From: a virus
DNA length: 64,000 bases
Strand: one strand, 5' to 3'
Virus record (IMG/VR): IMGVR_UViG_3300044655_001360
Below, one piece after another: positions 19,155-45,502 of the stretch. Positions within the stretch are counted from its first letter, which is position 1, and each line of letters starts with the position of its first letter. The notes beneath the pieces were generated by a model that worked only from the letters and a program-made list of their open reading frames with translations, searched no databases and had not been told where the DNA came from. Position numbers and translations under genes: made by a program.

Positions 19155-19176
19155 GCGAGGCGCGTTAGTGCCGAGC
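19155..19176 (+). repeat. Hairpin element, copy 1
   Basis: GCGAG GCGC GTTA GTGC CGAGC (one G.T pair on this strand). Confidence 0.75.
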
Positions 19177-19181
19177 CTTAG

Positions 19182-20201
19182 TTAAAAAGAAAACAACGAA
19201 TTGAAGAAGTTATCCTGACGAGTTTCACTCAAATCCCAGTTGAGTACACCAATCAAGTTGTCCAACTTGTCATCAATCAACTTCTCTTCCATGATAGCTT
19301 CATCAAATGGAAGTTCCTTAAACCATTGAGGTAAACGTTGTTCATCAACTGGATACGCTACGCTCTTGAATCCCATCGGGTTATCTTTAAGTGTACAAAC
19401 CACCACTTTGGAACCATCGATAATAGACATAGTATACTTGTCACTATTCATGCGTTTTAAGGTATTCCAATTGATACTAGCTCTGACTTGACCTGGCATC
19501 GTTGCTTTGCCTTTATCGGTTAATAACGTACCATACTTGGTAATGTTATTAGCTCGTTTTGGTGAACCCTTTTCCCAACCATTCCATTTCTTGAATTCTT
19601 GTCTGAATTCGGTAATGTAATTGATTGTATCCTCTTGTGGTTTGCCATTGAGAACCATATCTAATACATTACTTAAGAAGTCTTGAATTGCCGGTGGCGT
19701 GTCAGATCGTCTTAAGTCCAAACCCATTGCTTTTACTTTACCAGCTTTGCCATTCACATCCATACGTTTACCTTCCTTGTCGAAGTAAAGAACCGCGTAT
19801 CGTTTTTTGGTGATGAACAGCGCTTTAGAACCAATGATCTCGCGGCCTGCTTTGATTACTGAACCACGTGCTTTTGGGCAATGAAATGCAGTAGACATGA
19901 ATTTTGGGAAAGTCTCGTTAACTTCCTCACCAATCGCATCATAAAACTGAATGATTGATTCTTTATCCCATGGGATTTGACCAGAATCAATCAATGGTTT
20001 CAATGTTGGGTATGCAGAGAAATACACCGAGTTATGAATTAAAATGTCGTTACCAAAAAACCATGGATGATCTTCGTTTTTCATACCAATGTCATATACA
20101 TATTCATCCTCTGCTTTTCTTAGAAGTTTAACTGACTTCACTTTTCCACGGTGTAAACTTATTGTGTTAGTTTGTTGCATAATACCATTCCTTAATTTCA
20201 T
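19182..20201 (-). CDS. polB: Family B DNA polymerase, C-terminal part, with N-terminal split-intein C-fragment (20031..20201)
   Basis: 'YVYDIGM...FFGNDILIHN|SVYF' gives intein blocks F/G plus the +1 Ser. Followed by PolB motifs KKRYA and KAMGLD..RSD. The real start may be MQQTN at 20180. Confidence 0.93.
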   Translation of the reverse strand: MKLRNGIMQQTNTISLHRGKVKSVKLLRKAEDEYVYDIGMKNEDHPWFFGNDILIHNSVYFSAYPTLKPLIDSGQIPWDKESIIQFYDAIGEEVNETFPKFMSTAFHCPKARGSVIKAGREIIGSKALFITKKRYAVLYFDKEGKRMDVNGKAGKVKAMGLDLRRSDTPPAIQDFLSNVLDMVLNGKPQEDTINYITEFRQEFKKWNGWEKGSPKRANNITKYGTLLTDKGKATMPGQVRASINWNTLKRMNSDKYTMSIIDGSKVVVCTLKDNPMGFKSVAYPVDEQRLPQWFKELPFDEAIMEEKLIDDKLDNLIGVLNWDLSETRQDNFFNSLFSF

Positions 20202-21171
20202 TGATGACAGTCTCTTTGTCTTTATACCATGCTTTTTCCCAGATTACAAATACTTCATATCCTTGATTATTGGCATATGTACGTTTTGCTTGATCGCGGG
20301 ACCAAATGAAATAAGCATGTTGTCCTTTTTGTTTAAAGTAAAAATCTCTATCATATAAGTCTGGATCAGCATGCCAGTATGATCCATAAAACTCAATCAA
20401 CTTCTTACGCGATGGATCACCGTAATCATATGGTCCAATATGTGGATTATCTAGTCTAAAGGATAATTGTAAATCTGGCATTACTGCAACTAAATCCTCA
20501 TATGCAGATAATTCGATTTTTGATTGTATTCGTTCAACCGATGCACGACCAATACAAAACGCATCATACTTTTCAGTTCCATCTTCAAGACCATAAGTTT
20601 CCACAAAATATTCCAATGACGTGGTATATCGTTGTTGCTCGCAGTATATATTCCAATTAACCATACCAGCAACTACACCATGGCGGTCTATCATGTTTTG
20701 TATCGTTTGAGATCTTGAATTATTATACGCATTGAATTCATCAATAGTCATACCATATTTTGCTTCCTTGTACTCGAAGGTGTTAGTTTCTGCCTGTACA
20801 TCACAGTAACTTTTCCATCTGATCTTTCCTTCTTCTTCGCCGTATTTTTCAATCATCGCGGCTTCTGTAACACCGCACAATTCTTTTAAGTTTTCTGACA
20901 CGATTGGCGATGTTGGATACCTATGTATATATTCCGCTATTGTAATACTTTCAACACATTTACTTTTCAAATGGGTTGGTGTGATACGTTTATATGATTT
21001 CCCACACATTGCACATTTCACTTGGCTATTTGGGTCCGCAGAATCGACGGATCTTCTACTAACACCATACTTGTTAGTCTTTATGGTTATCCCATTAACA
21101 GGGGGGTTAACGCCCAACGAGTTCAATAACTCACCATACAACTGTTTTGTTTCATCGTCAACATTGTTCAT
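20167..21171 (-). mobile_element. Free-standing Vsr-like (very-short-patch/DUF559-type) homing endonuclease gene between the polB halves
   Basis: N-terminal CxxC..H..C Zn-finger, KYG.E.G repeats and C-terminal 'IEFYGSYWH...RD..K...A...GY.V.VIWE'. Has its own AAGGA RBS. Confidence 0.8.
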
Positions 21172-21183
21172 GCTATATCCTTA

Positions 21184-23370
21184 TTAGTTTATAAAATCTG
21201 AGTGTTTCACCGATATCAATATATCAGTCTCTAAAATGTCAATCGGTTTAGTTTCAATTAAATTACCATCTCTCTCAACCATAACTGAATGGTCTTCAGT
21301 TACAATTATGGTGTTTCCAAGTTCATCTTCAATTTCGTACAAATCCTTTGATACTTTATGTCGGTATATGTAGTTAATATTACCATAATACGGTGCATCA
21401 TCTTTTAGACTATACGATAAAACTTGTAGATCTGGGTTACATGCATACTCCTTATCACCATTATTCCAAAACTCAGTACACCCGTTAAACAACTCTTCGA
21501 TTGTCTTAACTCCTTGATTTGTATGGTGTTTCGTTTCGGAAAATTCGGAATCCGTGTCGTTATAAATGATTGATTTTCCTAGATAATTATATTCACCACA
21601 TACAATCTCGTTAACTTGTGCTGTCATATGACGGGTAATCGACCGTCCAGTTAATGTTGTACTTTGACCAATGCGTTTATCGAAAAACCTACAACCACTG
21701 TTCAAAATCGCCCCATAGCAGGAGTTCAAAAGTAATTTGGTATACTGTTCTTTAATACTCCAGTATCTTTCCTCGATGTCAAGTCCAGCATCCCGAGCAA
21801 CTTTCATTTTTTTCTGCATTACTTGACGATCAGCATACCATTGTTTTAACAAACCGGGAATGATTCCCTCTTTTTCAAAAGTAAAGATAGTACCATTTGC
21901 ACTTAACATCCATGATTGACCAGATTTGAAAATTAAATCATAGGTTTGAGCAGCACTAAGTTCATCACTACTACCCTCTTCCCAATCTATAGTAAGCATA
22001 CGATTCGAATCTCTTGACATAACATCATCATATTCTAAAGTCGAAAATACGCCTTCCCAACATGAAGCAAACTTCTTACCTGTAGCCATTTGATCCGCAA
22101 TAAACTTATCAGTTGCCACTGGTCTAAGTTGACCGATAATAGTCTCTGGACTCATATTAAGTGCACGGATTGTACTAGGGTACAGCGAGTTGATATCTAA
22201 TGAAGCAACCCAATCATGTAGACCTTTTTTGGGATAAGCAACATACGCACCAGCAGCTTGCGTGTTTTCATTATCATTACGTGGCTTTCTATTAGGTGCA
22301 ATCTGCCCTTTACTATGCGCCTCATTGATAATAGCTTGTTCAATAGCTGCAACGGAACCTAACGTAGTTGGTAACAATACAGTACAACCATGAGCAGTCG
22401 TATTAGCCAAATCCATAAACTTCAACTTCTTATCCATTCTATCTAACAGTGCAACGTCTTGTCGGTTATATTCGATAAAAGTCTTAAAGTCTTGATTGTA
22501 TAGCTGTTCTAACGTACCATCATAAACAGTTTTATGGTCACCTAATTCATATTCAGCAATCGCATCTAATCGATAAGATGGCTTTTCTTCATGAGTATAC
22601 TTACGATAAATGTCCAAGTAATCCATATGAACTCGACCAACCAAATCGAAAGTAGTCGAAACCTTACCAAACTTCTCGAATTCACGTTTCTTAGGAGATT
22701 GATCCCATAAACAGAATCGACGAGTATCGTTCTTACTTAAAACCTTAGCAACACGATTAACGGTATATGGAATATCGAATGATTCAGAATTCCAACCACT
22801 TAATACATCAGCATCTTCGATAATAGTAAGGAACGTATCTAATAATTCCTTTTCTGTTTTAAAGATAAACGTATTCTCAAACTCAGCTACTTGCTCTTCA
22901 GCTTCTTTGATACTCATATGTTTTGGTGGAATTGCCAAACAAATCATAGTTTCAGACCACTGTAGATATACAGCAATAGAAACAATTGGCATAAAAGGAT
23001 CATCTGGTGCGGCATAGCCGCGTTCAGGACACATACTGGTCTCGATATCGAAATACGCGACATTGAGTTTAGGTGCATCTGCGTTAAGGTAATGGTCTTC
23101 AAGACAACGATAGGTAACATTGATATCACTTTCATATAACTTCTTGGTTTGACCAAATATAGCAATATTCTTATGATGTTCTTTGTGGGTTTTACTTTTA
23201 ACCCTAGACAATGGTTTACCTTTCATTGAATGATGGTTACCATTTGGGTCTTCGTAATAAAAGACATAGTTTGCTGGAAATTCTCGGTAATGGCGAATGC
23301 CATCTGTATCACGTTCAACTACGTGGATAATATCGCGATCTTTTTCATAAAAAGCATCTACATAACTCAT
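21184..23370 (-). CDS. polB: Family B DNA polymerase, N-terminal part, ending in split-intein N-fragment (21187..21549)
   Basis: Exo motifs FDIET, GWNS..FDIPY and YN.QD. Pol motifs DINSLYPS, KLLLNSCYG and YNDTD. Then 121 aa of intein (S-start, block B 'VTEDHS') and a TAA stop. Confidence 0.93.
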   Translation of the reverse strand: MSYVDAFYEKDRDIIHVVERDTDGIRHYREFPANYVFYYEDPNGNHHSMKGKPLSRVKSKTHKEHHKNIAIFGQTKKLYESDINVTYRCLEDHYLNADAPKLNVAYFDIETSMCPERGYAAPDDPFMPIVSIAVYLQWSETMICLAIPPKHMSIKEAEEQVAEFENTFIFKTEKELLDTFLTIIEDADVLSGWNSESFDIPYTVNRVAKVLSKNDTRRFCLWDQSPKKREFEKFGKVSTTFDLVGRVHMDYLDIYRKYTHEEKPSYRLDAIAEYELGDHKTVYDGTLEQLYNQDFKTFIEYNRQDVALLDRMDKKLKFMDLANTTAHGCTVLLPTTLGSVAAIEQAIINEAHSKGQIAPNRKPRNDNENTQAAGAYVAYPKKGLHDWVASLDINSLYPSTIRALNMSPETIIGQLRPVATDKFIADQMATGKKFASCWEGVFSTLEYDDVMSRDSNRMLTIDWEEGSSDELSAAQTYDLIFKSGQSWMLSANGTIFTFEKEGIIPGLLKQWYADRQVMQKKMKVARDAGLDIEERYWSIKEQYTKLLLNSCYGAILNSGCRFFDKRIGQSTTLTGRSITRHMTAQVNEIVCGEYNYLGKSIIYNDTDSEFSETKHHTNQGVKTIEELFNGCTEFWNNGDKEYACNPDLQVLSYSLKDDAPYYGNINYIYRHKVSKDLYEIEDELGNTIIVTEDHSVMVERDGNLIETKPIDILETDILISVKHSDFIN

Positions 23371-23449: not shown

Positions 23450-23692
23450 TTATTTGCCGTGTTTTAAGCAATACATAGTCACCAGTGGATTTTCTTCCAT
23501 TACGATTAAGTCAAACTGATACTTGCGATAATGCCTATTACGCTCTCTGTCTATTTCTGTTATCATGATTAGTTTTGGGCATACCTTAGTTACTACGCCA
23601 ACTCGTAAGTCGTTATGATGTGCAAATGCTACGAAGTTACCTGCTACTACTGGTCTACCTAGTTTGTCACTTTGTTCGATTATTTTAGCCAT
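23450..23692 (-). CDS. Hypothetical protein
   Basis: 80-aa ORF with an AGGA RBS. Confidence 0.55.
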   Translation of the reverse strand: MAKIIEQSDKLGRPVVAGNFVAFAHHNDLRVGVVTKVCPKLIMITEIDRERNRHYRKYQFDLIVMEENPLVTMYCLKHGK

Positions 23693-23714: not shown

Positions 23715-23736
23715 GCTCGCACCTAGCGGTGCTCGC
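23715..23736 (-). repeat. Hairpin element, copy 2
   Basis: Minus strand GCGAG CACC GCTA GGTG CGAGC. Confidence 0.9.
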
Positions 23737-23791
23737 AAGGTACGAGCAATGCACAAGTGAGGTACGAGTGAGGTACGAGCAAGGTACTAGC
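23737..23791. repeat. Short iterated AGGTACGAG repeats
   Basis: AGGTACGAGC, AGGTACGAGT, AGGTACGAGC, AGGTACTAGC. Confidence 0.8.
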
Positions 23792-25690: not shown

Positions 25691-25700
25691 TTTGGGGTCC

Positions 25701-26164: not shown

Positions 26165-26740
26165 TTACCTATTCTCGTGTATTTTATTTGATTGCTGGCT
26201 AAAAGATCCGGTATTACCAATAGCAGACTTTGCTTGATTTGATTTAAACGCAACGTAAGTTCCAATAGTTGGGTAATATAGTCCATCATGCCCAGCTTTT
26301 TCAACTTCAATCCGTGCGTATCTAGCACCATCAGTACCGTGTTTTTTGATAAGATCACGCAAGAACTCTTCAGGTTCGTCCACAATCACTGGGTTTTTGA
26401 TTGATAGAAACATTGGTTTTACGTTACCATTTTCTCTTTTCGCATAATCACTTGCAACTTGCGTGTCCGATGAAAAGAAAAATCCACCATCAAATGTATA
26501 GAATCCAGGTGAGACTTTATCACGATCATACTCATCAAAATCGCTAGGAGATCCGTTATAAACCACTAAGGGTTCACCGTTTCCATCAACCACTTTACTA
26601 TCACCAAACCATGATTTGAATTCAGGTGTTCTTACTTGTTGGTATTGAACCGGATTCAAATTACTTGGCTTTCCATTTGGTGCTAGTAATTGCTCAGATT
26701 CAAGTAACTTTAATTTGTCTAAAAGATAACGGATTTCCAT
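26165..26740 (-). CDS. ART-PolyVal-like ADP-ribosyltransferase domain protein
   Basis: LAPNGKPSNL...VRTPEFKSWFGDSKVVD.NGEPLVVY.G...GFFFS...A..YA...FL.IKNP...G.DG...KSAIGN.G.F. Confidence 0.7.
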   Translation of the reverse strand: MEIRYLLDKLKLLESEQLLAPNGKPSNLNPVQYQQVRTPEFKSWFGDSKVVDGNGEPLVVYNGSPSDFDEYDRDKVSPGFYTFDGGFFFSSDTQVASDYAKRENGNVKPMFLSIKNPVIVDEPEEFLRDLIKKHGTDGARYARIEVEKAGHDGLYYPTIGTYVAFKSNQAKSAIGNTGSFSQQSNKIHENR

Positions 26741-27552
26741 TAGAGTTCCTCGTGCATTTTGTCAGATTTGGTACTGAATCCTACATTACCAATCGCAGAT
26801 TTAACTTGGTTTGGGTTGAATGCAACGACGATTGCACCTTCATGTTTATTTTCGAGGAACATCATACCATCATAGCCAGCTGATATTAAATCATTACGTA
26901 GTAATGAACCACCACCGGTTAAGTATTTGTGGGTATCATGTAAATCAAATGAGGAACGGACACCATTCAAATAATTGACGATACTATCCAATGTATCAGA
27001 TGATAATGACACATTAGCGGTTTTCATTAATTTAACAAACTCGTCCATATCAGAAATGTATTCTTGCCGTAATCTTATTGGATTTCTTATATTTAAAAAT
27101 ACGGCTTGTGTATTACCCGTGTCACCTGTGTAATGGGTGGCATCGCTCGAGTCTGTACTAAAGAAAAATCCAAATGTATTACTTACTGATTTATGTGTTA
27201 GGTTTTGCTTATCATAAGAGAATGTATCACCAAAATCTTCGACGTTGCCTCGATAGCATACTAATGGTTCTTCATTCGCGCCAACGATTTCACTAGATTG
27301 ATACTTATGTTCATCGTGTTCCCAATCACCAAACCATGCTTTGAATTCAGGGGTTCTTACCATGCGGTATTGACCAGCATTTAATTTGGAAGGTTTTCCA
27401 TTTGGTGCCAATCGTTGTTCTGGTTTATCAACCTTTTGAGGTTCTTGTTTGACTGGTTCTGCCTTAACGGGTTCTTGAACTTCATCATCTTTTGGCTGTT
27501 CTACCTCAGATTCAATCAACTTTAATTTGTCTAAAAGATAACGGATTTCCAT
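26740..27552 (-). CDS. ART-PolyVal-like ADP-ribosyltransferase domain protein (paralogue)
   Basis: Same motifs as 26165..26740. Start taken at MEIRYLLDKLKL (27552). Confidence 0.7.
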   Translation of the reverse strand: MEIRYLLDKLKLIESEVEQPKDDEVQEPVKAEPVKQEPQKVDKPEQRLAPNGKPSKLNAGQYRMVRTPEFKAWFGDWEHDEHKYQSSEIVGANEEPLVCYRGNVEDFGDTFSYDKQNLTHKSVSNTFGFFFSTDSSDATHYTGDTGNTQAVFLNIRNPIRLRQEYISDMDEFVKLMKTANVSLSSDTLDSIVNYLNGVRSSFDLHDTHKYLTGGGSLLRNDLISAGYDGMMFLENKHEGAIVVAFNPNQVKSAIGNVGFSTKSDKMHEEL

Positions 27553-27553
27553 A

Positions 27554-27787
27554 CTATTTCTTCTTTTTCTCAGGTAGGCCTTTATGCTTAGTGCTAGCAA
27601 AGTCTTTAACATCTGATTTACTAATTGACTTAGCCATCTTTGCTATTTTAGGGCTGGATGCATCACCAGTTTCTTGGGCATGTTTAACCGCACCAAACAA
27701 CCGTTGTTGTGCTTTACTCAACGACTTTTCAGCTAGTATTTCTGATTCAATCAAATCCAGTTTATCAAGTATATCTCTCATGTTCAT
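27554..27787 (-). CDS. Small basic protein (DUF3008-like) with head-protein leader
   Basis: MNMRDILDKLDLIESE leader and 'SKAQQRLFG...DFASTKHKGLPEK'. Confidence 0.6.
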   Translation of the reverse strand: MNMRDILDKLDLIESEILAEKSLSKAQQRLFGAVKHAQETGDASSPKIAKMAKSISKSDVKDFASTKHKGLPEKKKK

Positions 27788-28918: not shown

Positions 28919-29272
28919 CTAAATCTGATACCGGATTTGTACGATAGTACCTTGTTCTAGTTGATAAGCAGCCCTAATCCAAATGAATTTACCCCAGAAT
29001 GTATATGAGGAATTTGCACTGGATATATATGAACTATCACCACCTAATAAAGTTTCGGGCACGTCAAACCAATCCTGTTCACCCGGATATAACTCTAGGG
29101 TTGCTTGGATTTTAACTGTACCTTTAAACTGGTCAAATTGATAAACAACGAGATGACTTCCATCGTTATTATGTTGATAACCTGCACCTTTTTGCTTAGA
29201 AGTATAGGCAAATTCGGTAGGCATCGAATCATTTGAGTAGTTTGATATTAATATTTGACTTTCTTTTTGCAT
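28919..29272 (-). CDS. Hypothetical late (probably structural) protein
   Basis: Start taken at MQKESQ, just downstream of CTAAATA (29277..29283). Confidence 0.5.
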   Translation of the reverse strand: MQKESQILISNYSNDSMPTEFAYTSKQKGAGYQHNNDGSHLVVYQFDQFKGTVKIQATLELYPGEQDWFDVPETLLGGDSSYISSANSSYTFWGKFIWIRAAYQLEQGTIVQIRYQI

Positions 29273-29305: not shown

Positions 29306-29327
29306 GCTCGCTCCTAGCGGAGCTCGC
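29306..29327 (-). repeat. Hairpin element, copy 3
   Basis: Minus strand GCGAG CTCC GCTA GGAG CGAGC. Confidence 0.9.
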
Positions 29328-29377: not shown

Positions 29378-29399
29378 GCGAGTGCCGATAGGCACGAGC
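29378..29399 (+). repeat. Hairpin element, copy 4
   Basis: GCGAG TGCC GATA GGCA CGAGC. Confidence 0.9.
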
Positions 29400-29438
29400 C
29401 ATAAAAAAAGGGCAGTACCTGAGTACCACCCTTTGGGG

Positions 29439-32536: not shown

Positions 32537-32558
32537 GCTCGCTCCTAGCGGAGCTCGC
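32537..32558 (-). repeat. Hairpin element, copy 5
   Basis: Minus strand GCGAG CTCC GCTA GGAG CGAGC. Confidence 0.9.
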
Positions 32559-32569: not shown

Positions 32570-32869
32570 TCAATTATCTTTTAGATCACGAATGGCTCTA
32601 ACACTGTTTATGTTTTCCTTGTATAGAGATGTTTGTATTCCGTTTTGGTTGAAACTTTTACACCAAACATAACTGATATTGTGTTCTGTGAACGACCAAT
32701 ATCGTTTCTTATCAAAATCATTATCTGATTCATATATTCTGTTTAATTCATCTTTAGTGGGTAATCGCCATCCAGTCTTACCATCTATATTAAGAGAAAA
32801 ACAATACAACTTGGCATCAAACCAGTTTAGTCTAATTTCAGTTGATTTAGGTGCTATTTCAAAGTTCAT
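32570..32869 (-). CDS. DUF1566/Lcl-like (C-type lectin fold) small protein, paralogue 1
   Basis: MNFEIAPKS...W.DA..YC..L.I.G..GWRLPT..EL...YWS...VRAIRDLKDN. Confidence 0.75.
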   Translation of the reverse strand: MNFEIAPKSTEIRLNWFDAKLYCFSLNIDGKTGWRLPTKDELNRIYESDNDFDKKRYWSFTEHNISYVWCKSFNQNGIQTSLYKENINSVRAIRDLKDN

Positions 32870-33059
32870 GATGATCATTATCCTCAACCGACCATTCAAT
32901 ATAGTCAATCAAATTTTGAATATCGCTACGTAGGACAGTTGCACGATATTGCCATTGGTTATTCTCGGTTACGAGTTTATCTTCGAGTGATTCAACAGTC
33001 GCTAAAAGATTATCGAGTTTTAACATTAAGATTTGTTTATGTGATAGGGATTTTCTCAT
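32859..33059 (-). CDS. Hypothetical protein
   Basis: 66 aa with a GGAGG RBS, downstream of the promoter. Confidence 0.6.
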   Translation of the reverse strand: MRKSLSHKQILMLKLDNLLATVESLEDKLVTENNQWQYRATVLRSDIQNLIDYIEWSVEDNDHHEL

Positions 33060-36274: not shown

Positions 36275-36574
36275 TCAATTATCTTTTATATCTCTCACGG
36301 CGCGTACCCGAATATTATCACTTGATTTACCATGAGCGTATCGACTACCATCTCTAAATGATAAAGCATCAGCAAGTATATTAGTAATCTCAACAGATGT
36401 CCAGTAGTATGAACTTGCGAAATCATTTCCTGATTTGTATATTTCGTTTAATTCTTCATTGGTTGGTAGCCTCCATCCGGATTTACCGCCTATATCAAGG
36501 GAGAAACAATACAAACGGGCATCATCCCAGTTGGATCGGATCTCTGTTGATTTTGGTGCTATTTCAAATTTCAT
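36275..36574 (-). CDS. DUF1566/Lcl-like protein, paralogue 2
   Basis: Family motifs present; promoter TTGACT-N16-TATACT at 36608..36635. Confidence 0.75.
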   Translation of the reverse strand: MKFEIAPKSTEIRSNWDDARLYCFSLDIGGKSGWRLPTNEELNEIYKSGNDFASSYYWTSVEITNILADALSFRDGSRYAHGKSSDNIRVRAVRDIKDN

Positions 36575-36726: not shown

Positions 36727-36747
36727 GCTCGCGCTATTCGCGCTCGC
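36727..36747 (-). repeat. Hairpin element, copy 6 (21-nt variant)
   Basis: Minus strand GCGAG CGC GAATA GCG CGAGC. Confidence 0.8.
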
Positions 36748-37269: not shown

Positions 37270-37900
37270 GCGGTATGTGGAGCTGAACATCTTAACCCGA
37301 AAAACTCGGGTTAATTCAAAGCATTCTGGAGGATACATTCTCAAGAAGTTCTGCGTACAAGTATCGCATCACAGCAGCAGTAGAGCATTACAGAGGCGGT
37401 CAGCCGGTACCTCGAGCTCAGTCTTATTAATCTGACGGTGGCTTGCTGGACAACTGCTACCTCATCCAACAAACGCGGGTTTTCTCAACCCATCTTTAGC
37501 CTTTGTTATATCTTTTTGCTGTAACTCAAATGGGTTGTATGAAGGCATATCCCATAACTCATCTGGTGGGGTAGTGAGTTACATCTCCGTTGCTAAATTC
37601 GGAACTTCCATCCCCTATGTGACAAGTAGACTAGGGTTTAAGGGCACGTAATGGTCGCCTGTGCGCGGCTTTCTTAGCAATTCTCTCGTCTTTCTATGTT
37701 CTATCTAGTAATTCGACGAGCAATGGTGGCGGGTGCCTAAAAGATAATTGAAGTAGTATTGAGATGGTCTCTGAAGTTGTAAAAGCGAATAGACTAGGTG
37801 TCGGTAGGGATTTGAGTTGGTCTCTAAAAGATCATTGAGTAATAGACTGGGTGTCGGTAAGCATTTGAGATGGTCTCGGTAAACTGCTTTTGAGTAGAAT
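37270..37900 (-). ncRNA. Candidate large structured non-coding RNA
   Basis: ORF-free, GC-elevated core with many helices whose G.U pairs favour the minus strand. Consensus promoter directly upstream. Ends are uncertain. Confidence 0.6.
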
Positions 37901-39993: not shown

Positions 39994-40015
39994 GCGAGCA
40001 CCGATAGGTGCGAGC
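39994..40015 (+). repeat. Hairpin element, copy 7
   Basis: GCGAG CACC GATA GGTG CGAGC. Confidence 0.9.
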
Positions 40016-40118
40016 CATAACCATTATGACAACTCAAATACTACCAAAATGGCAAACTAAATACAAGCAGTGCAGTACTTAACGCAGTTCAAACTTCAAC
40101 CAAAAAGGACTTCAAAGC

Positions 40119-41678
40119 ATGACGAGAAAAAGATCAAGACACACGGATTCACGCGAGTATTTCAACGAAACGCATGAACCAAATACCCCACCCCAAAGCA
40201 AAAAAGCCCGTAGTAAAAACTCCAGTAGTAAACACCAGCAGTCCCATCAACAAAACCACCAGCAACAACCAGACCCACAGCAAATGTCAATCGATCAACG
40301 ATTGGCTGCTAAACGTAAACGGGTTCAAATTCACCCCAAAAACCTTAGCCAAGAACAATACTTAATGGAACTTAACAATCCTAAAAAACAAATTGTTTTT
40401 GCTATCGGGCCAGCTGGTACTGGTAAAGCTCAACCACTGTTTTCAAAAATAAAAATTCCAGGCGGTTGGACTACTATGGGTGATATCGCAGTAGGTGATA
40501 AAGTCACTACTCCTGATGGTAATACCGCTAATGTCGTCGGCTTATTCCCACAAGGTAGTAAACCGACTTATTCAATCACCTTGCACGATGGTCGTTCTAC
40601 TCTAGCCTGCGCTGAACACCTATGGGAAGTATTCCTTGATAATAAACCTGCAGTCATCAATACACTAGAACTACTTAAACTGCGTTATCATGGCTCTATT
40701 ATGCCTTATATTCGCCTACCTAAACACGAAATCATGGACGATGTAGAACTACCAATCGACCCTTTCCAATTAGGTACTATGCTCTTAAAAGACGATAAAG
40801 CTATCCCAGCGGAATATCTCAACGCTTCTCGTTCACAAAAAGTTAAATTACTACAAGGTCTGCTCGATACCAGTATTCATGCTGTCGATTCTGGTAACCT
40901 AGTCTTTACTGCCGGTGCCTTGTTACAAAACTCTGTTGTCTACCTTGTGCGTTCTATCGGTGGTTCTGCTTGTATCAAAGACACTGGTGTTCATATTCGG
41001 TTTAGTATCGTTGAGAGTCCTTTAGAGTTAATGCCGGTGTTGTCAGTTGTCGAATCCGAGGTGGAAGAGTGTCAGTGTATCTTGATCGATAGTGAGGAAC
41101 ACTTGTATGTTACTGATAATTATATAGTTTCCCACAACACGCTAATCGCAACTCAGTGGGCCGTTGATCAATTTAAAGCTGGTAAATGTGATAAGATTAT
41201 TGTAACTAGACCTGCAGTTTCAAACTCAGAATCTCTCGGTTACCTTCCTGGTAATTTGGAAGAAAAAATGCTACCGTGGACTGTTGGTATGTTTGACGTT
41301 TTTTACGAAAACTGGACTAAGGCAGAAGTCGAGTGGTTGATGTCCCGTGACTGTATATCCATTTCCCCGATGTCGTATATGCGCGGACGTACAATGAAAA
41401 ATGCTTGTGTTATTGCAGACGAGGTGCAGTTATGTAACCCAAGCCAAATGAAAATGCTTCTTACTCGAATAGGTGATCAGTCAAAAATGATTTTGACAGG
41501 TGATCTCGCACAAGCAGATAGAGGAGAATTTAACGGGTTAAAAGATTTTATGGGTTTATATGACAAGGCGTCTGTGAATAAGGAAGAATCCCGAATTGCT
41601 ATTGTTAGGTTTAGCCATTCAGATATCGAGCGGCACCCGGCAGTTGCCGAGGTGCTGAAATATTACGGTGAAGATTAG
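40119..41678 (+). CDS. phoH: PhoH-family ATPase containing an intein
   Basis: GPAGTGK|intein|T, TRPAV, LGYLPG..EEK..P, YMRGRT, DE.Q, LLTRIG, TGDLAQ.D, DI.RHP. Confidence 0.93.
   Translation: MTRKRSRHTDSREYFNETHEPNTPPQSKKARSKNSSSKHQQSHQQNHQQQPDPQQMSIDQRLAAKRKRVQIHPKNLSQEQYLMELNNPKKQIVFAIGPAGTGKAQPLFSKIKIPGGWTTMGDIAVGDKVTTPDGNTANVVGLFPQGSKPTYSITLHDGRSTLACAEHLWEVFLDNKPAVINTLELLKLRYHGSIMPYIRLPKHEIMDDVELPIDPFQLGTMLLKDDKAIPAEYLNASRSQKVKLLQGLLDTSIHAVDSGNLVFTAGALLQNSVVYLVRSIGGSACIKDTGVHIRFSIVESPLELMPVLSVVESEVEECQCILIDSEEHLYVTDNYIVSHNTLIATQWAVDQFKAGKCDKIIVTRPAVSNSESLGYLPGNLEEKMLPWTVGMFDVFYENWTKAEVEWLMSRDCISISPMSYMRGRTMKNACVIADEVQLCNPSQMKMLLTRIGDQSKMILTGDLAQADRGEFNGLKDFMGLYDKASVNKEESRIAIVRFSHSDIERHPAVAEVLKYYGED
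40428..41138 (+). mobile_element. Class-3-type intein (237 aa) in the PhoH P-loop, with degenerate LAGLIDADG remnants
   Basis: Starts AQPL; block B HLW, block F CQCI, block G YVT...SHN; +1 Thr. Confidence 0.88.
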
Positions 41679-41689
41679 TTAGTAATAAG

Positions 41690-41712
41690 AAAAGGGCCTT
41701 ACGGCCCTTTTT
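41690..41712 (+). terminator. Rho-independent terminator after phoH
   Basis: AAAAGGGCC-TTAC-GGCCCTTTTT. Confidence 0.8.
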
Positions 41713-41721
41713 GTTTATATG

Positions 41722-41743
41722 GCTCGCACCTATCGGTGCTCGC
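41722..41743 (-). repeat. Hairpin element, copy 8
   Basis: Minus strand GCGAG CACC GATA GGTG CGAGC. Confidence 0.9.
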
Positions 41744-41829
41744 ATGATAAAAAGTATAAATACAAATGAGATTCGCGACTGTAGGAAGTCCAATCCCTCT
41801 AACATTTAATCTTAAAGGAGAATGCCAGC

Positions 41830-43134
41830 ATGAGTATTTATGCACCAGTCAAAAACCCAATTTCATTGGGTACACAATCAAACACTGTACAACCACAACC
41901 AACAACTTTACCCGAAGATAATCAAATCCCAGGGTATGTATATCGACTTACCTGTATACCTACTGGACAGTTTTATATAGGATCTCGTGTTGGGAATATC
42001 ACCGAAAAGAAAATGCCGAAAGAAGACTTTTGGATTAATTATCATACCAGTAGTGAATATGTCACTGAGTTAAGAATACTGTATGGGAAAGCTAGTTTCG
42101 AGTATGAAATCATTTACGAGGATTGTGATAGAGATAAAGTATTTTGGTATGAACAGGAACAAATCCAAAAACATTATAATGACCCATTGATTTTGAATAA
42201 ACAGGTTAATGGATATAAAGATAAACATAAAGGTAAATCTATACCAATATCCACATCAGGAAAACATAGAAAATGGGAAGTTACAGCACCGTGTGGTGTT
42301 GTGTGGGTAGTGAGTAACCTTGAACGATATTGCAAAAATAACGACTTAGATCCAGAAACGATGCGTGGTTTAGCGAGAGGAAAAGGTAAGCAATACAAAG
42401 GCTTTAAGTGCAGACTACAACCCAAATTACCAGTTCCAGCTTGGTATGTTACTATTGACATGGGTGACATTATAAAACCAATCGAACCTATTATGATATT
42501 AGGTAAAGTTCCGGTCATCGATATCAATATCAATCTAGTAGTACCGGAATTGCATGTGATTAAGTTTAAGCATAAGGAAAAGACTGAATCGTTGAGATCA
42601 CAGTATAAGAAATTAACTGCTGCTAAACCAGCAAAGAAACCAAAACCAGTGATACCATACAGCCCATCTGTTGCTAAAGGCTTGGCTAAAAAGAAAGCCA
42701 ATGGAACTCTTAGCTCGGCAGCTATAAAAGGTCAGGCAACACAGAGAAAGAATGGAACACATCAAAATGGTAACAAGGCTACCGTGTTAGCAACTAGAAA
42801 AGTGTGGGAGATTACTGATCCAGCTGGTAATATTACTATTACCAATGATTTGACTGGTTTTTGTAAAGAAAACGGCTTATCAGTTGCTTGTATGCGAGAT
42901 GTTGCATTTAATAGGCAGTTACAACATCGTGGTGGGTGGAAATGTAAAGAATGCGTTGGTGCTAAACCAGCAATTCATTGGGAGATTACGGACCCATTTG
43001 GTAATATAATTACAACTGATAATATAAAACAATTCTGCGAGGATAATAGTTTGAGTGAACCAGGTATGCGAAAAGTTGCACTTGGTTCCGCAAAATCACA
43101 TCGAGGCGGCTGGAAGTGTAAACGATTAGACTAA
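41830..43134 (+). CDS. Free-standing GIY-YIG-type homing endonuclease with three NUMOD-like repeat modules
   Basis: GYVY...FYIGSR and Y.TSS; three 'W.[IV]T.P.G......NL..[FY]C..N.L....MR..A.....GWKC'-like repeats. TATAAATA at 41755. Confidence 0.7.
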   Translation: MSIYAPVKNPISLGTQSNTVQPQPTTLPEDNQIPGYVYRLTCIPTGQFYIGSRVGNITEKKMPKEDFWINYHTSSEYVTELRILYGKASFEYEIIYEDCDRDKVFWYEQEQIQKHYNDPLILNKQVNGYKDKHKGKSIPISTSGKHRKWEVTAPCGVVWVVSNLERYCKNNDLDPETMRGLARGKGKQYKGFKCRLQPKLPVPAWYVTIDMGDIIKPIEPIMILGKVPVIDININLVVPELHVIKFKHKEKTESLRSQYKKLTAAKPAKKPKPVIPYSPSVAKGLAKKKANGTLSSAAIKGQATQRKNGTHQNGNKATVLATRKVWEITDPAGNITITNDLTGFCKENGLSVACMRDVAFNRQLQHRGGWKCKECVGAKPAIHWEITDPFGNIITTDNIKQFCEDNSLSEPGMRKVALGSAKSHRGGWKCKRLD

Positions 43135-43177
43135 AAGATAATGGGGCTCACGCGAGTGGGCCCTTTCTTTATAACAA

Positions 43178-43199
43178 GCTCGCACCTAGCGGTGCTCGC
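43178..43199 (-). repeat. Hairpin element, copy 9
   Basis: Minus strand GCGAG CACC GCTA GGTG CGAGC. Confidence 0.9.
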
Positions 43200-43215: not shown

Positions 43216-43503
43216 CTAAGCAGAAACAAACCCATGTTCACGTAGCAACATAAGGTCTACGAACTCCCAGCTGATAACCCGATAGAACATAGTCATAGCT
43301 TCACTATGATCGTCGTAGTCTCTTTCCATACCAGTATCATCTTCACCCCAAACGCAAACACGCCATTGGCCATCCCCATTTGTTGGATCTGGACCAGTCT
43401 GTGTAAAGGAAACACAAACAAGTTGCAGGTTATCCCAACCTTTTACTTGGTATGAAGGGTACCAATCATCGTGGGTTGGTTTGTATACGTCAATTCTTTT
43501 CAT
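43216..43503 (-). CDS. Hypothetical protein
   Basis: 95 aa with an AAGGA RBS. Confidence 0.6.
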   Translation of the reverse strand: MKRIDVYKPTHDDWYPSYQVKGWDNLQLVCVSFTQTGPDPTNGDGQWRVCVWGEDDTGMERDYDDHSEAMTMFYRVISWEFVDLMLLREHGFVSA

Positions 43504-44538: not shown

Positions 44539-44554
44539 ACGGTTTTCCTTAATA

Positions 44555-44576
44555 GCTCGCACCTAGCGGTGCTCGC
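44555..44576 (-). repeat. Hairpin element, copy 10
   Basis: Minus strand GCGAG CACC GCTA GGTG CGAGC. Confidence 0.9.
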
Positions 44577-44582
44577 GTTGAT

Positions 44583-44894
44583 TCAATTATCTTTTAGATC
44601 TCTCACTGGTCTAACTCCTAGTATTTCATGTGATTTCCCACCAGTTGAATGATATCCCGTGTCGAAAAGTGAGTAACAATACACGCAGTTATTATCATAG
44701 TCTACCTCAGTAGATGACCAGTAATACCCACCCAGTACAAAATCACTGTCTATTTTTCTTATTGACATCAATTCATCAATGGTTGGTAATCGCCAATCAT
44801 TTTTCCCATCGATATTAAGAGAGAAACAATACAGTTTAGCATCACTCCACGTAAGTCTTGTTTCGGTTGATTTAGGTGCTATTTCAATATTCAT
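44583..44894 (-). CDS. DUF1566/Lcl-like protein, paralogue 12
   Basis: Family motifs; ends VRPVRDLKDN. Promoter TTGACT-N17-TAGACT at 44926..44954 overlaps a 12-mer box. Confidence 0.75.
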   Translation of the reverse strand: MNIEIAPKSTETRLTWSDAKLYCFSLNIDGKNDWRLPTIDELMSIRKIDSDFVLGGYYWSSTEVDYDNNCVYCYSLFDTGYHSTGGKSHEILGVRPVRDLKDN

Positions 44895-44950
44895 GTGATT
44901 CTCGATTGGTTGTTATGTTTCAAGTAGTCTAAAAGATAATGCGAACAAAG

Positions 44951-45247
44951 TCAACTATTATCTTTTAGATCTCTCACTGGTCTAGCGTAACGAATGTGTT
45001 CTTTAAAGCTATGAGATCCCAGTTCGGAATGCCAGTTGTAGCATACTATCCAGTCGCCATCGTCGTTGGAAGTCCAATACCATTCATCGGAACTTTCAAT
45101 GTTTTGTGATTTTAGAAACTCTTGTTCCTTATTGGTAGGTAAACGCCATCCAATTTTCCCATCAATGGTCAACGAAAAACAATATAATTTAGCATCTTCC
45201 CAGTTCAATTCTTTTTGGAATTCAATAGGTGCTATTTCGATGTTCAT
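44951..45247 (-). CDS. DUF1566/Lcl-like protein, paralogue 13
   Basis: Family motifs; ends RPVRDLKDNS. Confidence 0.75.
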   Translation of the reverse strand: MNIEIAPIEFQKELNWEDAKLYCFSLTIDGKIGWRLPTNKEQEFLKSQNIESSDEWYWTSNDDGDWIVCYNWHSELGSHSFKEHIRYARPVRDLKDNS

Positions 45248-45324
45248 TCAAAGTCCGTAAGAAAATCAGCAAGCATAAAAGCAAAAACAAATAAGAATGC
45301 GATAAAAGTAAGAGTGTAAAACAT
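45244..45324 (-). CDS. 26-aa hydrophobic membrane peptide
   Basis: MFYTLTFIAFLFVFAFMLADFLTDFE; AGGAGA RBS; stop overlaps the next ATG. Confidence 0.55.
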   Translation of the reverse strand: MFYTLTFIAFLFVFAFMLADFLTDFE

Positions 45325-45355
45325 GTTGATTCTCCTAGTAGTTGATACTGTATGT

Positions 45356-45383
45356 ATTATACCTAAAAGATAATGGATGTCAA
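45356..45383 (-). promoter_or_regulatory. Sigma70-like promoter with the 12-mer box in its spacer
   Basis: TTGACA-tccATTATCTTTTAGg-TATAAT. Confidence 0.8.
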
Positions 45384-45480
45384 CATTTTTCGATGGGTAA
45401 AGAAAAGGGCCTATTGGATAGACCCTTTTGATACTTTGCGAGCTCAATATGACTAAAAGATAATCGTGTATTACCTCCTA

Positions 45481-45502
45481 GCGAGCGCCGCTAGGCGCGA
45501 GC
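45481..45502 (+). repeat. Hairpin element, copy 11
   Basis: GCGAG CGCC GCTA GGCG CGAGC. Confidence 0.9.

What the first reader, a model, noticed from the sequence alone, without database searches (positions are those of the whole stretch)
19155..45502. Dispersed 21-22-nt hairpin element with covarying stem, tandem G.A pairs and GNTA loop (11 copies)
Seen: consensus GCGAG-N4-G[C/A/T]TA-N4'-CGAGC at 19155(+), 23715(-), 29306(-), 29378(+), 32537(-), 36727(-, 21-nt variant), 39994(+), 41722(-), 43178(-), 44555(-) and 45481(+). All are intergenic and GC-rich in an AT-rich genome. The N4 arms vary but stay complementary (CACC/GGTG, CTCC/GGAG, TGCC/GGCA, CGCC/GGCG, and GCGC/GTGC with a G.T pair), so structure is conserved rather than sequence. 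The invariant flanks fold as GC-GA/GA-GC, a tandem G.A mismatch closed by two G-C pairs, and this works on one strand only. Established: sheared tandem G.A pairs and GNNA loops make very stable ssDNA hairpins. Strand-specific imperfect hairpins are recognised by HUH nucleases (REP/RAYT, IS200/IS605), N4 virion RNAP and DGR target sites. The element has no U-tract and occurs in both orientations relative to transcription, so it is not a terminator. Inference: a phage REP-like structural signal read by a dedicated protein.
Basis: partly seen in the sequence, partly recalled or inferred. Interest (0 to 1): 0.9.

Follow-up and report, generated by a model that had tools for sequence, protein, structure and literature searches.

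The report
Dispersed covarying hairpin repeat in jumbo phage
An uncultivated freshwater giant phage and its relatives scatter a sharply defined 22-base hairpin through the gaps between early and replication genes; it resembles bacterial REP elements and the T4-type "PeSL" cassettes, and its function is still unproven.

Summary
The window has 10 exact copies of GCGAG-N4-GNTA-N4'-CGAGC plus one 21-nt variant, against 0 expected by chance. A covariance model finds exactly these 11 sites and nothing else.

The element is a family. IMG/VR and metagenome contigs of related, roughly 350-kb T4-like jumbo phages give 135 non-redundant sites. The flanks and loop T-A are invariant and the 4-bp stem covaries (98.7% paired; 0/500 shuffles). 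Some orthologous sites with near-identical flanks show double compensatory changes.

It is not an intrinsic terminator: only 9 of 135 sites have a T-rich tail. It matches no Rfam family and is absent from PA5oct, SCTP-2 and Phosso.

Its placement follows rules:
- It lies 0-14 nt after stop codons.
- It lies 9-16 nt downstream of a second motif, CTAAAAGATAAT.
- It lies about 10 nt upstream of early -35 boxes and 20-45 nt upstream of late CTAAATA promoters.
- It also occurs in back-to-back pairs and tandem arrays.

Orientation relative to flanking genes is mixed (50 sense, 35 antisense). Copies sit at cassette indel and flank-swap junctions.

No HUH, reverse transcriptase or integrase gene was found in the sequence available.

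My best reading (about 0.4) is a protein-read RNA stem-loop that marks transcription-unit boundaries and is also a recombination hot spot. A REP-like single-stranded-DNA role remains open. The scan had not noted this element before.

The parts
19155..19176 (+). Hairpin copy, stem GCGC/GTGC with a G.T pair, loop GTTA. Lies 5 nt past the stop of the minus-strand PolB C-terminal-half gene (19182-20201) and is antisense to it. On the minus strand a 10-bp hairpin (19144-19121) and a TTGACA-17-TAAACT promoter (19112-19084) follow.
23715..23736 (-). Hairpin copy, CACC/GGTG, loop GCTA. Sense orientation, 22 nt upstream of the ATG of the 80-aa gene 23450-23692 and 64 nt downstream of a CTAAATA late-type motif (23807). 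Preceded by three CTCGTACCT-like repeats.
29306..29327 (-). Hairpin copy, CTCC/GGAG, loop GCTA. Sense orientation. TTGTAT-17-TAATAT abuts its 5' end. Lies 22 nt upstream of CTAAATAC (29283) and 33 nt upstream of the ATG at 29272.
29378..29399 (+). Hairpin copy, TGCC/GGCA, loop GATA. Back-to-back partner of 29306, 50 nt away, and antisense to the flanking minus-strand genes. A TTGATA-16-TAATAT promoter-like site ends 6 nt upstream. The terminator hairpin 29407-29434 starts 7 nt downstream.
32537..32558 (-). Hairpin copy, CTCC/GGAG, loop GCTA. Sense orientation, 11 nt after the stop of the Lcl_C/DUF1566 gene 32570-32908, 14 nt after the 12-mer (32573-32583), and 10 nt upstream of the -35 of a TTGACA-16-TATACT promoter (32526-32499).
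36727..36747 (-). 21-nt variant, stem CGC/GCG, loop GAATA. Lies in the large non-coding region, about 50 nt upstream of the terminator 36677-36650.
39994..40015 (+). Hairpin copy, CACC/GGTG, loop GATA. Lies in a divergent gap, sense to the downstream PhoH-like gene (ATG 40119), and 41 nt upstream of CTAAATA (40057).
41722..41743 (-). Hairpin copy with a 22-mer identical to 39994. Lies between the PhoH-like and SegE-like plus-strand genes and is antisense to both. The bidirectional terminator 41689-41712 lies 10 nt away. It is one end of the indel seen in L004.
43178..43199 (-). Hairpin copy, CACC/GGTG, loop GCTA. Lies 16 nt after the stop of minus-strand gene 43216-43503 at a convergent junction, 13 nt before the terminator hairpin 43143-43164. 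The ortholog in L001 has AGCC/GGCT.
44555..44576 (-). Hairpin copy, CACC/GGTG, loop GCTA. Sense orientation, 6 nt after the stop of the DUF1566-family gene 44583-44894, 9 nt after the 12-mer (44586-44596), and 16 nt before the ATG of the next family member, with the AAGGA ribosome-binding site 4 nt after the hairpin.
45481..45502 (+). Hairpin copy, CGCC/GGCG, loop GCTA. Lies 4 nt past the stop of minus-strand gene 45507-45836 and is antisense to it. Lies 16 nt downstream of a plus-strand 12-mer (45454-45464), so the whole 12-mer-plus-hairpin module is inverted here.
32573..32583 (-). Example of the associated motif (C)TAAAAGATAAT. In 130 related sites a forward copy lies upstream of the hairpin 56 times (most often 9-16 nt away) and a reversed copy upstream only once. 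Other window copies next to hairpins are at 44586-44596(-), 45454-45464(+) and 43132-43142(+).

Best explanation
This is a clade-specific dispersed intergenic hairpin module of an uncultivated, T4-like freshwater jumbo phage of roughly 350 kb. It is the functional counterpart of bacterial REP elements and of the stem-loops in T4-type PeSL cassettes. The conserved strand folds into a 5-bp stem whose four inner pairs covary. The stem is capped by a G-N-U/T-A loop and extended by a tandem G.A and two G-C pairs. The helix is kept from extending any further. The module marks the boundaries of early and middle transcription units. It sits just after stop codons or after the CTAAAAGATAAT motif, just upstream of early and late promoters, sometimes directly after a promoter, and sometimes just before a canonical terminator. 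The most likely mode of action is inferred, not shown. The transcribed hairpin would be a very stable stem-loop read by a protein through its invariant loop and G.A platform. It would punctuate polycistronic RNA, protecting 3' or 5' ends or attenuating read-through into the next unit. Because the same 22 bases recur, it is also a hot spot for recombination and gene conversion that shuffles gene cassettes.
For: Family and structure (shown):
- There are 11 clean copies in the window and 135 non-redundant sites in relatives.
- Positions 1-5, 12-13 and 18-22 are invariant. The stem is 98.7% paired, with 52 double-change cells against 17 in shuffles, 0/500.
- Double compensatory changes occur at orthologous sites whose 80 flanking bases differ by 0-3.
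- G.T pairs occur only on the conserved strand, in 4 sites; there are no A.C pairs.
- Positions -1 and +1 avoid pairing: 5 of 135 are paired.
- As RNA the sense strand folds at -12.6 kcal/mol, with 95% of the ensemble in that fold.

Placement rules (shown):
- Late CTAAATA motifs lie 25 times downstream in the same orientation (7-70 nt) and 0 times downstream in the opposite orientation.
- TTGAC[AT] lies downstream in the same orientation 32 times, most often at 10 nt.
- The hairpin lies 5-14 nt after a stop codon in 14 of 50 sense cases.
- The ribosome-binding site of the next DUF1566 gene lies 3-5 nt after the hairpin.
- Consensus promoters fire straight into some copies, for example L016 2490 (TTGACA-17-TATTAT, 12 nt, hairpin, terminator) and L029 1501.
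- -10-like hexamers are about 3-fold enriched 0-9 nt upstream.

Recombination (shown):
- L004 joins the upstream flank of the 44555 copy to the downstream flank of the 41722 copy across a single hairpin. About 3 kb with the SegE-like gene and several DUF1566 genes is removed.
- Further flank swaps and array-length changes occur at hairpins.

Precedent: PeSL cassettes of T4-type phages combine a stem-loop with early promoters and mediate cassette shuffling (PMC2839356, PMC4122927).
Against: - Between co-directional genes the element is sense in 50 cases and antisense in 35. That is not significantly biased, so a role that needs transcription of the conserved strand requires antisense promoters at many sites, and few of those are convincing.
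- In several copies a -10-like hexamer ends 0-3 nt upstream. A transcript from it would start inside the 5' arm.
- GNUA is not a canonical stable RNA tetraloop, whereas G-NT-A with a sheared G.A closure is known for DNA (from my own knowledge).
- No RNA data could be obtained.
- No binding protein is identified.
- Tandem arrays and iteron-linked copies are not needed for simple punctuation.
Confidence: 0.4

Rival explanations
1. The element is a single-stranded-DNA signal. The hairpin would extrude on one DNA strand during replication or recombination. A dedicated nuclease or recombinase (HUH/RAYT-like, integron-integrase-like or a homing-type nickase) would then read it, spread the element and recombine gene cassettes at it.
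For: - Orientation is independent of flanking genes: 50 sense, 35 antisense.
- There are inverted back-to-back pairs, tandem arrays and truncated or decayed copies.
- Exchange points fall at or inside the invariant 5-nt arms. The variable core travels with either flank (L001 2681 against L121 1761 and L108 1297; L002 8499 against L005 2283). Different stem variants sit at orthologous sites (L003 2295 against L093 895).
- The plus-strand gene island at 40.0-43.2 kb is bracketed by inverted copies.
- A G-NT-A loop with a sheared G.A closure and tandem G.A pairs are known stabilisers of DNA mini-hairpins (from my own knowledge).
- A freestanding SegE-like GIY-YIG/HNH gene is flanked by copies.
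Against: - No Y1_Tnp, RVT_1 or Phage_integrase match was found in five related contigs totalling 253 kb, nor in the window ORFs scanned. All of these are fragments.
- There is no GTAG head and no target-site duplication.
- The fixed orientation and spacing relative to the 12-mer and to late and early promoters look like regulatory grammar.
- Sites are positionally conserved among relatives.
- The predicted DNA hairpin is only -6.1 kcal/mol.
Confidence: 0.25
2. The element is a passive repeat with no dedicated reader. A stable hairpin is tolerated or mildly useful in gaps between genes. It is copied together with whole regulatory cassettes by the phage's own homologous recombination, template switching and quasi-palindrome correction.
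For: - Many spacings look like paralogous copies of one cassette, for example hairpin-caataaacac-TTGACA and 12-mer-14 nt-hairpin.
- DUF1566 gene arrays are tandem duplications that carry the junction sequence.
- PeSLs are thought to use the ordinary T4 recombination machinery (PMC2839356).
Against: - Twelve asymmetric positions are absolutely invariant over 135 sites, while the stems and flanks vary freely.
- The G.A pairs are maintained instead of stronger Watson-Crick pairs.
- Helix extension is selected against.
- Loop positions T12 and A13 are conserved while N11 is free.
All of this points to sequence-specific recognition.
Confidence: 0.15
3. The element is a late-transcription aid. A strand-specific structure upstream of T4-type late promoters would be nicked, or used as an entry site for the sliding clamp that activates late promoters.
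For: - There are 25 same-orientation copies 7-70 nt upstream of CTAAATA, against 0 downstream-opposite and 1 inside a late leader.
- T4-like late machinery is implied by the DsbA-like and clamp-loader genes and by CTAAATA motifs in front of structural genes.
Against: - About 80% of copies have no late motif within 120 nt.
- The 25 cases reduce to about 8-10 independent loci.
- There are no copies in the structural-gene blocks of the window.
- There is no evidence of nicking.
Confidence: 0.05
4. The element is a DGR target-site hairpin for a multi-target diversity-generating retroelement that acts on the DUF1566/C-type-lectin-fold gene arrays.
For: - Sense copies lie 4-33 nt after the stops of Lcl_C/DUF1566 genes in the window and in relatives.
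- DGR target hairpins have 7-10-bp GC-rich stems that may vary, a sequence-dependent 4-nt loop (GRNA on the sense strand), and lie 4-34 bp after the variable repeat (PMC3240598).
Against: - No reverse transcriptase was found (and the window scans).
- The last 150 nt of the 15 family genes share only the terminal 20-30 nt. They have no template-repeat-like partner and no adenine-specific mismatches.
- Most copies are not next to such genes, and 35 are antisense.
- 85 of 135 loops (GCTA, GTTA) break the GRNA rule.
- Only 3 of about 15 family genes in the window carry a hairpin.
Confidence: 0.03
5. The element is an ordinary intrinsic transcription terminator.
For: It is a GC-rich hairpin placed after genes, and both strands fold.
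Against: - Only 9 of 135 copies have at least 5 T in the next 8 nt. The mean T content there is 27%.
- The phage has separate canonical terminators, 12 of them 5-26 nt downstream of a hairpin.
- The invariant asymmetric flanks are not explained.
Confidence: 0.03

Closest known systems
PeSL (promoter-early stem-loop) cassettes of T4-type phages RB49/phi1, nt-1/KVP40 and PST/T4 (Arbiol et al. 2010, PMC2839356; Comeau et al. 2014, PMC4122927)
   Same: The host genome is a T4-like phage. The repeats are intergenic and combine a stem-loop with sigma-70-type early promoters, next to small accessory genes. Cassette insertions and deletions between relatives have their junctions in the repeat.
   Different: PeSL stem-loops are loosely conserved polyG/polyC or A3-4G3/C3T3-4 hairpins that act as terminators inside a motif of about 100 bp. 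Here the unit is a sharply defined 22-mer with 12 invariant asymmetric positions, tandem G.A pairs and a GNTA loop. It has no T tract, occurs in either orientation and is often separate from the true terminator.
REP/BIME (REPIN) elements of proteobacteria and their RAYT transposases
   Same: Both are short, GC-rich imperfect palindromes. Both are dispersed in gaps just after genes, in both orientations, as inverted pairs and arrays. In both, structure is conserved and the stems covary.
   Different: This element is in a phage, not a chromosome, and is 22 nt rather than 35-40 nt. It has no GTAG head and no RAYT gene was found. The two members of a pair have different stems, so they do not form one long REPIN hairpin. 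It is tightly coupled to a 12-mer and to promoters.
boxB/nut RNA hairpins read by lambda N and HK022 Nun
   Same: Both are short phage hairpins in which the stem needs only to pair, while the loop, closed by a sheared G.A, is read in a sequence-specific way. boxB modulates elongation at unit boundaries.
   Different: boxB occurs twice per genome, always in the transcript sense, with a boxA partner and a GNRA-like pentaloop. Here there are dozens of copies, mixed orientation, no boxA and a GNUA loop. No N-like protein is identified.
DGR target-site hairpin/cruciform (Guo et al. 2011, PMC3240598)
   Same: Both have a GC-rich stem of similar length and a 4-nt loop starting with G and ending with A on the sense strand, a few bases after a C-type-lectin-fold gene. 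In both, the stem sequence is free and the loop is fixed.
   Different: There is no reverse transcriptase, template repeat or adenine mutagenesis here. Most copies lie elsewhere, and the loop rule is different.
Integron attC sites
   Same: Both are strand-specific folded recombination sites that follow small cassette genes, with structure conserved rather than sequence.
   Different: No integrase or attI was found. attC sites are 57-141 bp with extrahelical bases and R/L boxes. Here only a minority of cassette genes carry the hairpin.

Membership tests
REP/RAYT | Dispersed, intergenic, imperfect palindromes in both orientations, often as pairs or arrays | tested here: met
   135 non-redundant sites. 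50 are sense and 35 antisense. Back-to-back pairs lie 25-70 nt apart and tandem arrays of 3-4 copies occur.
REP/RAYT | Conserved 5' GTAG tetranucleotide at the foot of the hairpin | tested here: not met
   The upstream flank shows only T at -2 (77%) and no G at -1. There is no GTAG.
REP/RAYT | A Y1 HUH transposase (RAYT) gene in the same genome, flanked by REPs | tested here: inconclusive
   PF01797 gave no match in five related contigs totalling 253 kb. None was found among the window ORFs scanned. All sequences are fragments of a genome of about 350 kb.
PeSL cassettes | T4-type phage genome | tested here: met
   PolB is nearest to PA5oct-like and T4-superfamily phages. DsbA-like, gp44-like clamp-loader, RNase H, dCMP deaminase and SegE-like genes are present. 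CTAAATA late-type motifs precede genes.
PeSL cassettes | Stem-loop joined to a sigma-70-type early promoter in the gap between genes | tested here: met
   TTGAC[AT] lies within 27 nt downstream in the same orientation at 22 of 130 sites, most often at 10 nt, and at 11 more in the inverted arrangement. This holds for a subset only.
PeSL cassettes | Stem-loop works as a transcription terminator or attenuator | not testable with these tools
   There is no T tract. A reporter or Term-seq experiment is needed.
PeSL cassettes | Recombination between copies creates cassette indels between related phages | tested here: met
   L004 compared with the window. Further flank swaps and array-length variants occur.
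boxB/nut | Always in the transcript sense just downstream of early promoters, with a boxA partner and a GNRA-like loop | tested here: not met
   Orientation is mixed. The loop is GNTA with T invariant at position 3. No conserved second box is seen other than the 12-mer, which also occurs reversed inside promoter spacers.
DGR target site | Reverse transcriptase plus a template/variable repeat pair with adenine-specific differences | tested here: not met
   There was no RVT_1 match. No template-repeat-like match to the 3' 150 nt of 15 family genes was found in the window.
DGR target site | Hairpin with a GRNA loop 4-34 bp after the variable repeat of the target gene | tested here: inconclusive
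   Position fits for the copies that follow DUF1566 genes. The loop fits in 48 of 135 sites (GATA, GGTA) and fails in 85 (GCTA, GTTA).
Intrinsic terminator | GC-rich hairpin directly followed by a U tract | tested here: not met
   9 of 135 copies have at least 5 T in the next 8 nt.
Any Rfam family | Match to a curated covariance model | tested here: not met
   No Rfam match overlaps any copy at E<=1.

The most novel reading that the evidence does not exclude
The hairpin is the folded single-strand recognition site of a still unidentified phage recombinase or nickase. That enzyme would run an integron-like cassette exchange system in a T4-like jumbo phage. Crossovers would fall in the invariant 5-nt arms, the CTAAAAGATAAT motif would be an accessory site, and the DUF1566, homing-endonuclease and other accessory genes would move as hairpin-bounded cassettes.
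Probability: 0.12. Interest if true: 0.9.

Novelty: new variant of a known kind. Interest (0 to 1): 0.6.

Why it matters
Dispersed structured repeats are well known in bacterial chromosomes (REP/BIME) and, in a loose form, in T4-type phages (PeSL). I found no description of a phage repeat this sharply defined in Rfam or in the papers searched. It has 12 invariant asymmetric bases, a tandem G.A platform and a covarying stem. It follows strict placement rules relative to a second motif and to early and late promoters.

It offers three things. It is a clean test of how giant phages mark and insulate transcription units. It is a visible mechanism for cassette shuffling in their accessory regions. 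It is a compact hairpin-protein recognition pair to look for.

It is also a practical marker for recognising contigs of this uncultivated freshwater jumbo-phage clade. The exact 22-mer scans recovered 20 viral and about 50 related metagenome contigs.

Tried and rejected
- Whole genome: none is held for the window.
- Near relatives in GenBank phages: none.
- Host-borne REP family: a scan of 185,579 species genomes for the C-N-CC stem class gave 21 hits. Most are in high-GC genomes, and nearly all carry the CGCC/GGCG stem. The five genomes checked hold only 1-2 copies each, so there is no dispersed family outside this phage clade. I cannot explain why that one palindromic variant recurs sporadically in unrelated MAGs.
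- Helix extension into the flanks: none. Positions -1 and +1 avoid pairing.
- The hairpin as a promoter, with the downstream CAWWAW as a -10 box: rejected. The sixth position is not conserved, and ribosome-binding sites lie 3-5 nt after the hairpin.
- The hairpin always at a transcript's 5' end: only about 10% of sites have a promoter scoring at least 9/12 directly upstream, and the spacing is variable.
- Enrichment at metagenome contig ends, as a sign of population heterogeneity: 11 observed against 8.8 expected, not significant.
- Link to homing endonucleases: two cases only (the window's SegE-like gene and the L083 DUF723 gene), and the two proteins are unrelated.
- Type III toxin-antitoxin reading of the tandem arrays: the downstream genes are ClpP and a DUF723 protein, not ToxN-like.
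- DGR reading: no reverse transcriptase and no template repeat.
- Clean empty sites with target duplications: paralogous junctions with and without the hairpin exist, but their flanks differ too much to define insertion boundaries.

Full report
**1. The observation.** The pattern GCGAG-N4-GNTA-N4-CGAGC occurs 10 times in the window, at exactly the coordinates and strands given. Dinucleotide-preserving shuffles give none. The eleventh copy is a 21-nt variant at 36727-36747(-). Relaxing the pattern to two mismatches adds nothing. A covariance model built from 33 distinct variants returns exactly these 11 sites and no other hit at E<=10. The family is therefore sharply bounded. All copies lie between 19.1 and 45.5 kb, in the replication and early-gene block. 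The structural-gene blocks at 1-12 kb and 50-64 kb have none.

**2. The genome.** No whole genome is held for the window and no GenBank phage is close at the DNA level. The family-B DNA polymerase is 49% identical to those of PA5oct-like Pseudomonas jumbo phages. The window also encodes:
- a T4 DsbA-like protein, a gp44-like clamp loader, RNase H, dCMP deaminase and MazG;
- DnaJ, a Clp ATPase, two ART-PolyVal proteins and a PhoH-like protein;
- a SegE-like GIY-YIG/HNH endonuclease;
- about 15 small Lcl_C/DUF1566 genes.

CTAAATA(C) motifs stand in front of structural and other genes, like T4 late promoters. Related IMG/VR contigs of 30-72 kb are rated 8-20% complete, which implies a genome of about 350 kb. 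An Rfam hit to the Polynucleobacter-1 RNA (68 bits) and the origin of the related metagenome contigs suggest a freshwater betaproteobacterial host. That is inference.

**3. The family beyond the window.** Scans for the commonest 22-mer found 20 viral and 56 metagenome stretches. The general pattern was then read in these loci. After high-GC chance hits were removed there were 155 distinct canonical contexts and 135 non-redundant sites.

- *Invariant positions:* G1 C2 G3 A4 G5, T12 A13, and C18 G19 A20 G21 C22. G10 is 98% conserved. Loop position 11 is free (C 70, A 42, T 17, G 6).
- *Stem:* at least 11 fully Watson-Crick stem variants occur.
- *Covariation:* on 33 distinct sequences 98.7% of cells pair. 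There are 52 double-change cells against 17.3 in shuffles (0/500). Sliding the partner by 1-3 columns destroys the signal.
- *Orthologous sites:* among 18 pairs whose 80 flanking bases differ by at most 16, four differ in the stem. All four differ by exactly one compensatory pair swap, and their flanks differ by only 0-3 of 80 bases, one of them by none.
- *Wobble pairs:* G.T pairs occur only on the conserved strand, at 4 sites. A.C pairs never occur.
- *Flanks:* they do not extend the helix. Positions -1 and +1 pair in only 5 of 135 sites. T at -2 (77%) and C at +1 (87%) are preferred.
- *Shorter variants:* copies with 2-3-bp stems exist.
- *Distribution:* the model finds nothing in PA5oct, SCTP-2 or Phosso. 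No Rfam family matches.

**4. Folding.** Both strands fold into the same shape. As RNA the conserved strand reaches -12.6 kcal/mol and its complement -10.2. As DNA the values are -6.1 and -5.5. The asymmetry therefore lies in the tandem G.A (against U.C/C.U on the complement), the loop and the wobbles. Because the G.A pairs are kept instead of stronger Watson-Crick pairs, and the helix is kept from growing, I infer that a shape is being read, not merely a stable hairpin.

**5. Placement rules.** Only 9 of 135 copies are followed by a T-rich stretch, so these are not intrinsic terminators. Canonical terminators are separate objects, 12 of them 5-26 nt downstream of a hairpin.

Between co-directional genes the element is sense in 50 cases and antisense in 35, which is no significant bias. 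In either orientation it often lies 0-14 nt beyond a stop codon.

Orientation is nearly absolute relative to two other motifs (130 sites, 120 nt each side):
- A forward CTAAAAGATAAT lies upstream 56 times, most often at 9-16 nt, and a reversed one upstream once. Sixteen reversed copies lie downstream, most often at 20 nt.
- The late-type CTAAATA lies downstream in the same orientation 25 times (7-70 nt), downstream reversed 0 times and upstream in the same orientation once. These 25 reduce to roughly 8-10 independent loci.
- Early -35 boxes lie downstream in the same orientation 32 times, most often at exactly 10 nt.

Some copies sit directly behind good promoters. Examples are L016 2490 (TTGACA-17-TATTAT, 12 nt, hairpin, terminator) and L029 1501. 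-10-like hexamers are about three-fold enriched 0-9 nt upstream.

Other contexts are:
- 12-16 nt before the start codon of a DUF1566 gene, with the ribosome-binding site 3-5 nt after the hairpin;
- back-to-back divergent pairs 25-70 nt apart whose two stems differ;
- tandem arrays with 34- or 45-nt periods, and an array interleaved with attataacccg iterons.

Truncated and decayed copies exist.

**6. Recombination.** In L004 a single hairpin joins the upstream flank of the window's 44555 copy to the downstream flank of its 41722 copy. About 3 kb is removed, including the SegE-like gene and several DUF1566 genes. Clustering the flanks separately shows 14 upstream classes joined to more than one downstream class, and 22 of the converse. 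Some of these are ordinary divergence or array neighbours. Others are true swaps in which the variable core travels with one flank or the other:
- L001 2681 against L121 1761 and L108 1297;
- L088 2485 against L091 1105;
- L094 2814 against L123 5858;
- L002 8499 against L005 2283.

At some orthologous sites a different stem variant is present (L003 2295 against L093 895). The exchange points thus fall in or next to the invariant arms. Enrichment of hairpins at contig ends was not significant.

**7. Candidate readers.** No Y1 HUH transposase, reverse transcriptase or tyrosine recombinase was found in 253 kb of related contigs or in the window ORFs scanned. These are fragments, so absence is not established.

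The DGR idea was tested because sense copies follow C-type-lectin-fold genes at the distance described for DGR target hairpins (PMC3240598). The 3' ends of the 15 family genes share only their last 20-30 nt and have no template-like partner. Most loops also break the GRNA rule.

**8. Interpretation.** Shown:
- a clade-specific, structure-conserved, strand-asymmetric hairpin family;
- fixed placement rules at transcription-unit boundaries;
- association with mosaic junctions.

The mode of action is inferred. I favour, at about 0.4, an RNA stem-loop read by a protein that punctuates or insulates early and middle transcripts. It would be the functional analogue of the stem-loop of T4-type PeSL cassettes (PMC2839356, PMC4122927), with recombination as a side effect of its repetition.

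The main weakness is the 41% of copies that are antisense to their neighbours. That fraction, together with the pairs, the arrays and the exchange points in the 5-nt arms, keeps a REP- or attC-like single-stranded-DNA role alive at about 0.25. A passive repeat (0.15), a late-transcription aid (0.05), a DGR target hairpin (0.03) and an ordinary terminator (0.03) are less likely.

**9. Novelty and score.** Dispersed intergenic hairpins are a known kind of element. This one is a new and unusually crisp variant in an unstudied phage clade. I found no description of it in Rfam or in the papers searched. Earlier notes of this scan on the same genome concern the DUF1566 arrays, the 12-mer and the large non-coding RNA, not this hairpin. 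I score interest at 0.6. The element is real, clean and experimentally tractable, but its mechanism is open and it is conceptually close to REP and PeSL.

Noticed in passing
window 16726-49699, both strands; e.g. 32573-32583(-), 36278-36288(-), 45364-45374(+), 47839-47928: CTAAAAGATAAT(TGA) recurs about 24 times exactly, and more with one mismatch. In forward orientation it overlaps the last codons and the stop (..DLKDN*) of DUF1566 genes and carries stop codons in all three frames. In reverse orientation it fills the spacer of near-identical consensus promoters (TTGACAtcnATTATCTTTTAGnTATAAT at 16726, 33093, 39927 and 45364). In L029 its GATAAT serves as a -10 box behind a TTGACA. It looks like the operator of a DNA-binding regulator. 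Clusters lie at 36.76-37.20 kb, 37.74-37.84 kb and 47.84-47.93 kb.
   Followed up: partly
window 37519-37669 (-): Full-length match to Rfam RF01718, Polynucleobacter-1 RNA (68.3 bits, gathering score 37). It lies inside the ORF-free region behind a consensus promoter. It hints at a Polynucleobacter-like freshwater host and puts a name on the 'ornate non-coding RNA' noted by other readers.
   Followed up: partly
window 39994-43199: The only plus-strand genes inside the minus-strand block, PhoH-like (40119-41678) and SegE-like GIY-YIG/HNH (41830-43134), form an island. It is bracketed by inverted hairpin copies, 39994(+) on one side and 41722(-)/43178(-) on the other. The 39994 and 41722 22-mers are identical. 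This is compatible with an old hairpin-mediated inversion or insertion. The relatives L001 and L014 share the arrangement.
   Followed up: partly
window 23737-23790 (-): Three direct repeats of (G)CTCGTACCT lie between a CTAAATA motif (23807) and the 23715 hairpin, in the leader of the 80-aa gene. They contain the reverse complement of the hairpin's CGAGC arm. Their meaning is unknown.
   Followed up: no
window 4001, 13688, 17440, 23807, 25754, 29283, 35863, 40057, 46251, 49038, 53905, 60552: CTAAATA(C) motifs lie 10-60 nt upstream of many start codons, including those of structural genes. They are probably the T4-type late promoter of this phage.
   Followed up: partly
window 40119-41678 (+): The PhoH-like ORF is 519 aa. 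Its C-terminal 180 aa match PhoH. Residues about 50-235 match helicase-loader, primase and terminase PHROGs of the kind that often mark inteins or fused domains.
   Followed up: no
window 26165-27612 (-): Two adjacent ART-PolyVal ADP-ribosyltransferase paralogs both begin MEIRYLLDKLK. Their first codons contain a one-mismatch reverse copy of the 12-mer.
   Followed up: no
L083 5190-5335 and 7673-7796; L089 11382-11546: In related contigs the hairpin forms tandem arrays: four copies with a 45-nt period upstream of a ClpP promoter, and four copies with a 34-nt period followed by a terminator. It is also interleaved with attataacccg iterons, which could be an origin or a regulatory array.
   Followed up: partly
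L053, L056, L058, L061, L067, L070 (unrelated MAGs): The exact 22-mer with the CGCC/GGCG stem (GCGAGCGCCGNTAGGCGCGAGC) turns up once or twice per genome in Xanthobacteraceae/Pseudolabrys repeat units, Saccharibacteria (abutting a tRNA-Met gene), a Woesearchaeota contig and a Kiritimatiellae contig. It is not a dispersed family there. I have no explanation for the recurrence.
   Followed up: partly
window 19182-23370 (-): The family-B DNA polymerase is split into an N-terminal gene (21184-23370) and a C-terminal gene (19182-20201). A separate 334-aa ORF with a weak endonuclease-type match lies between them. One hairpin copy lies 5 nt after the C-terminal half.
   Followed up: no
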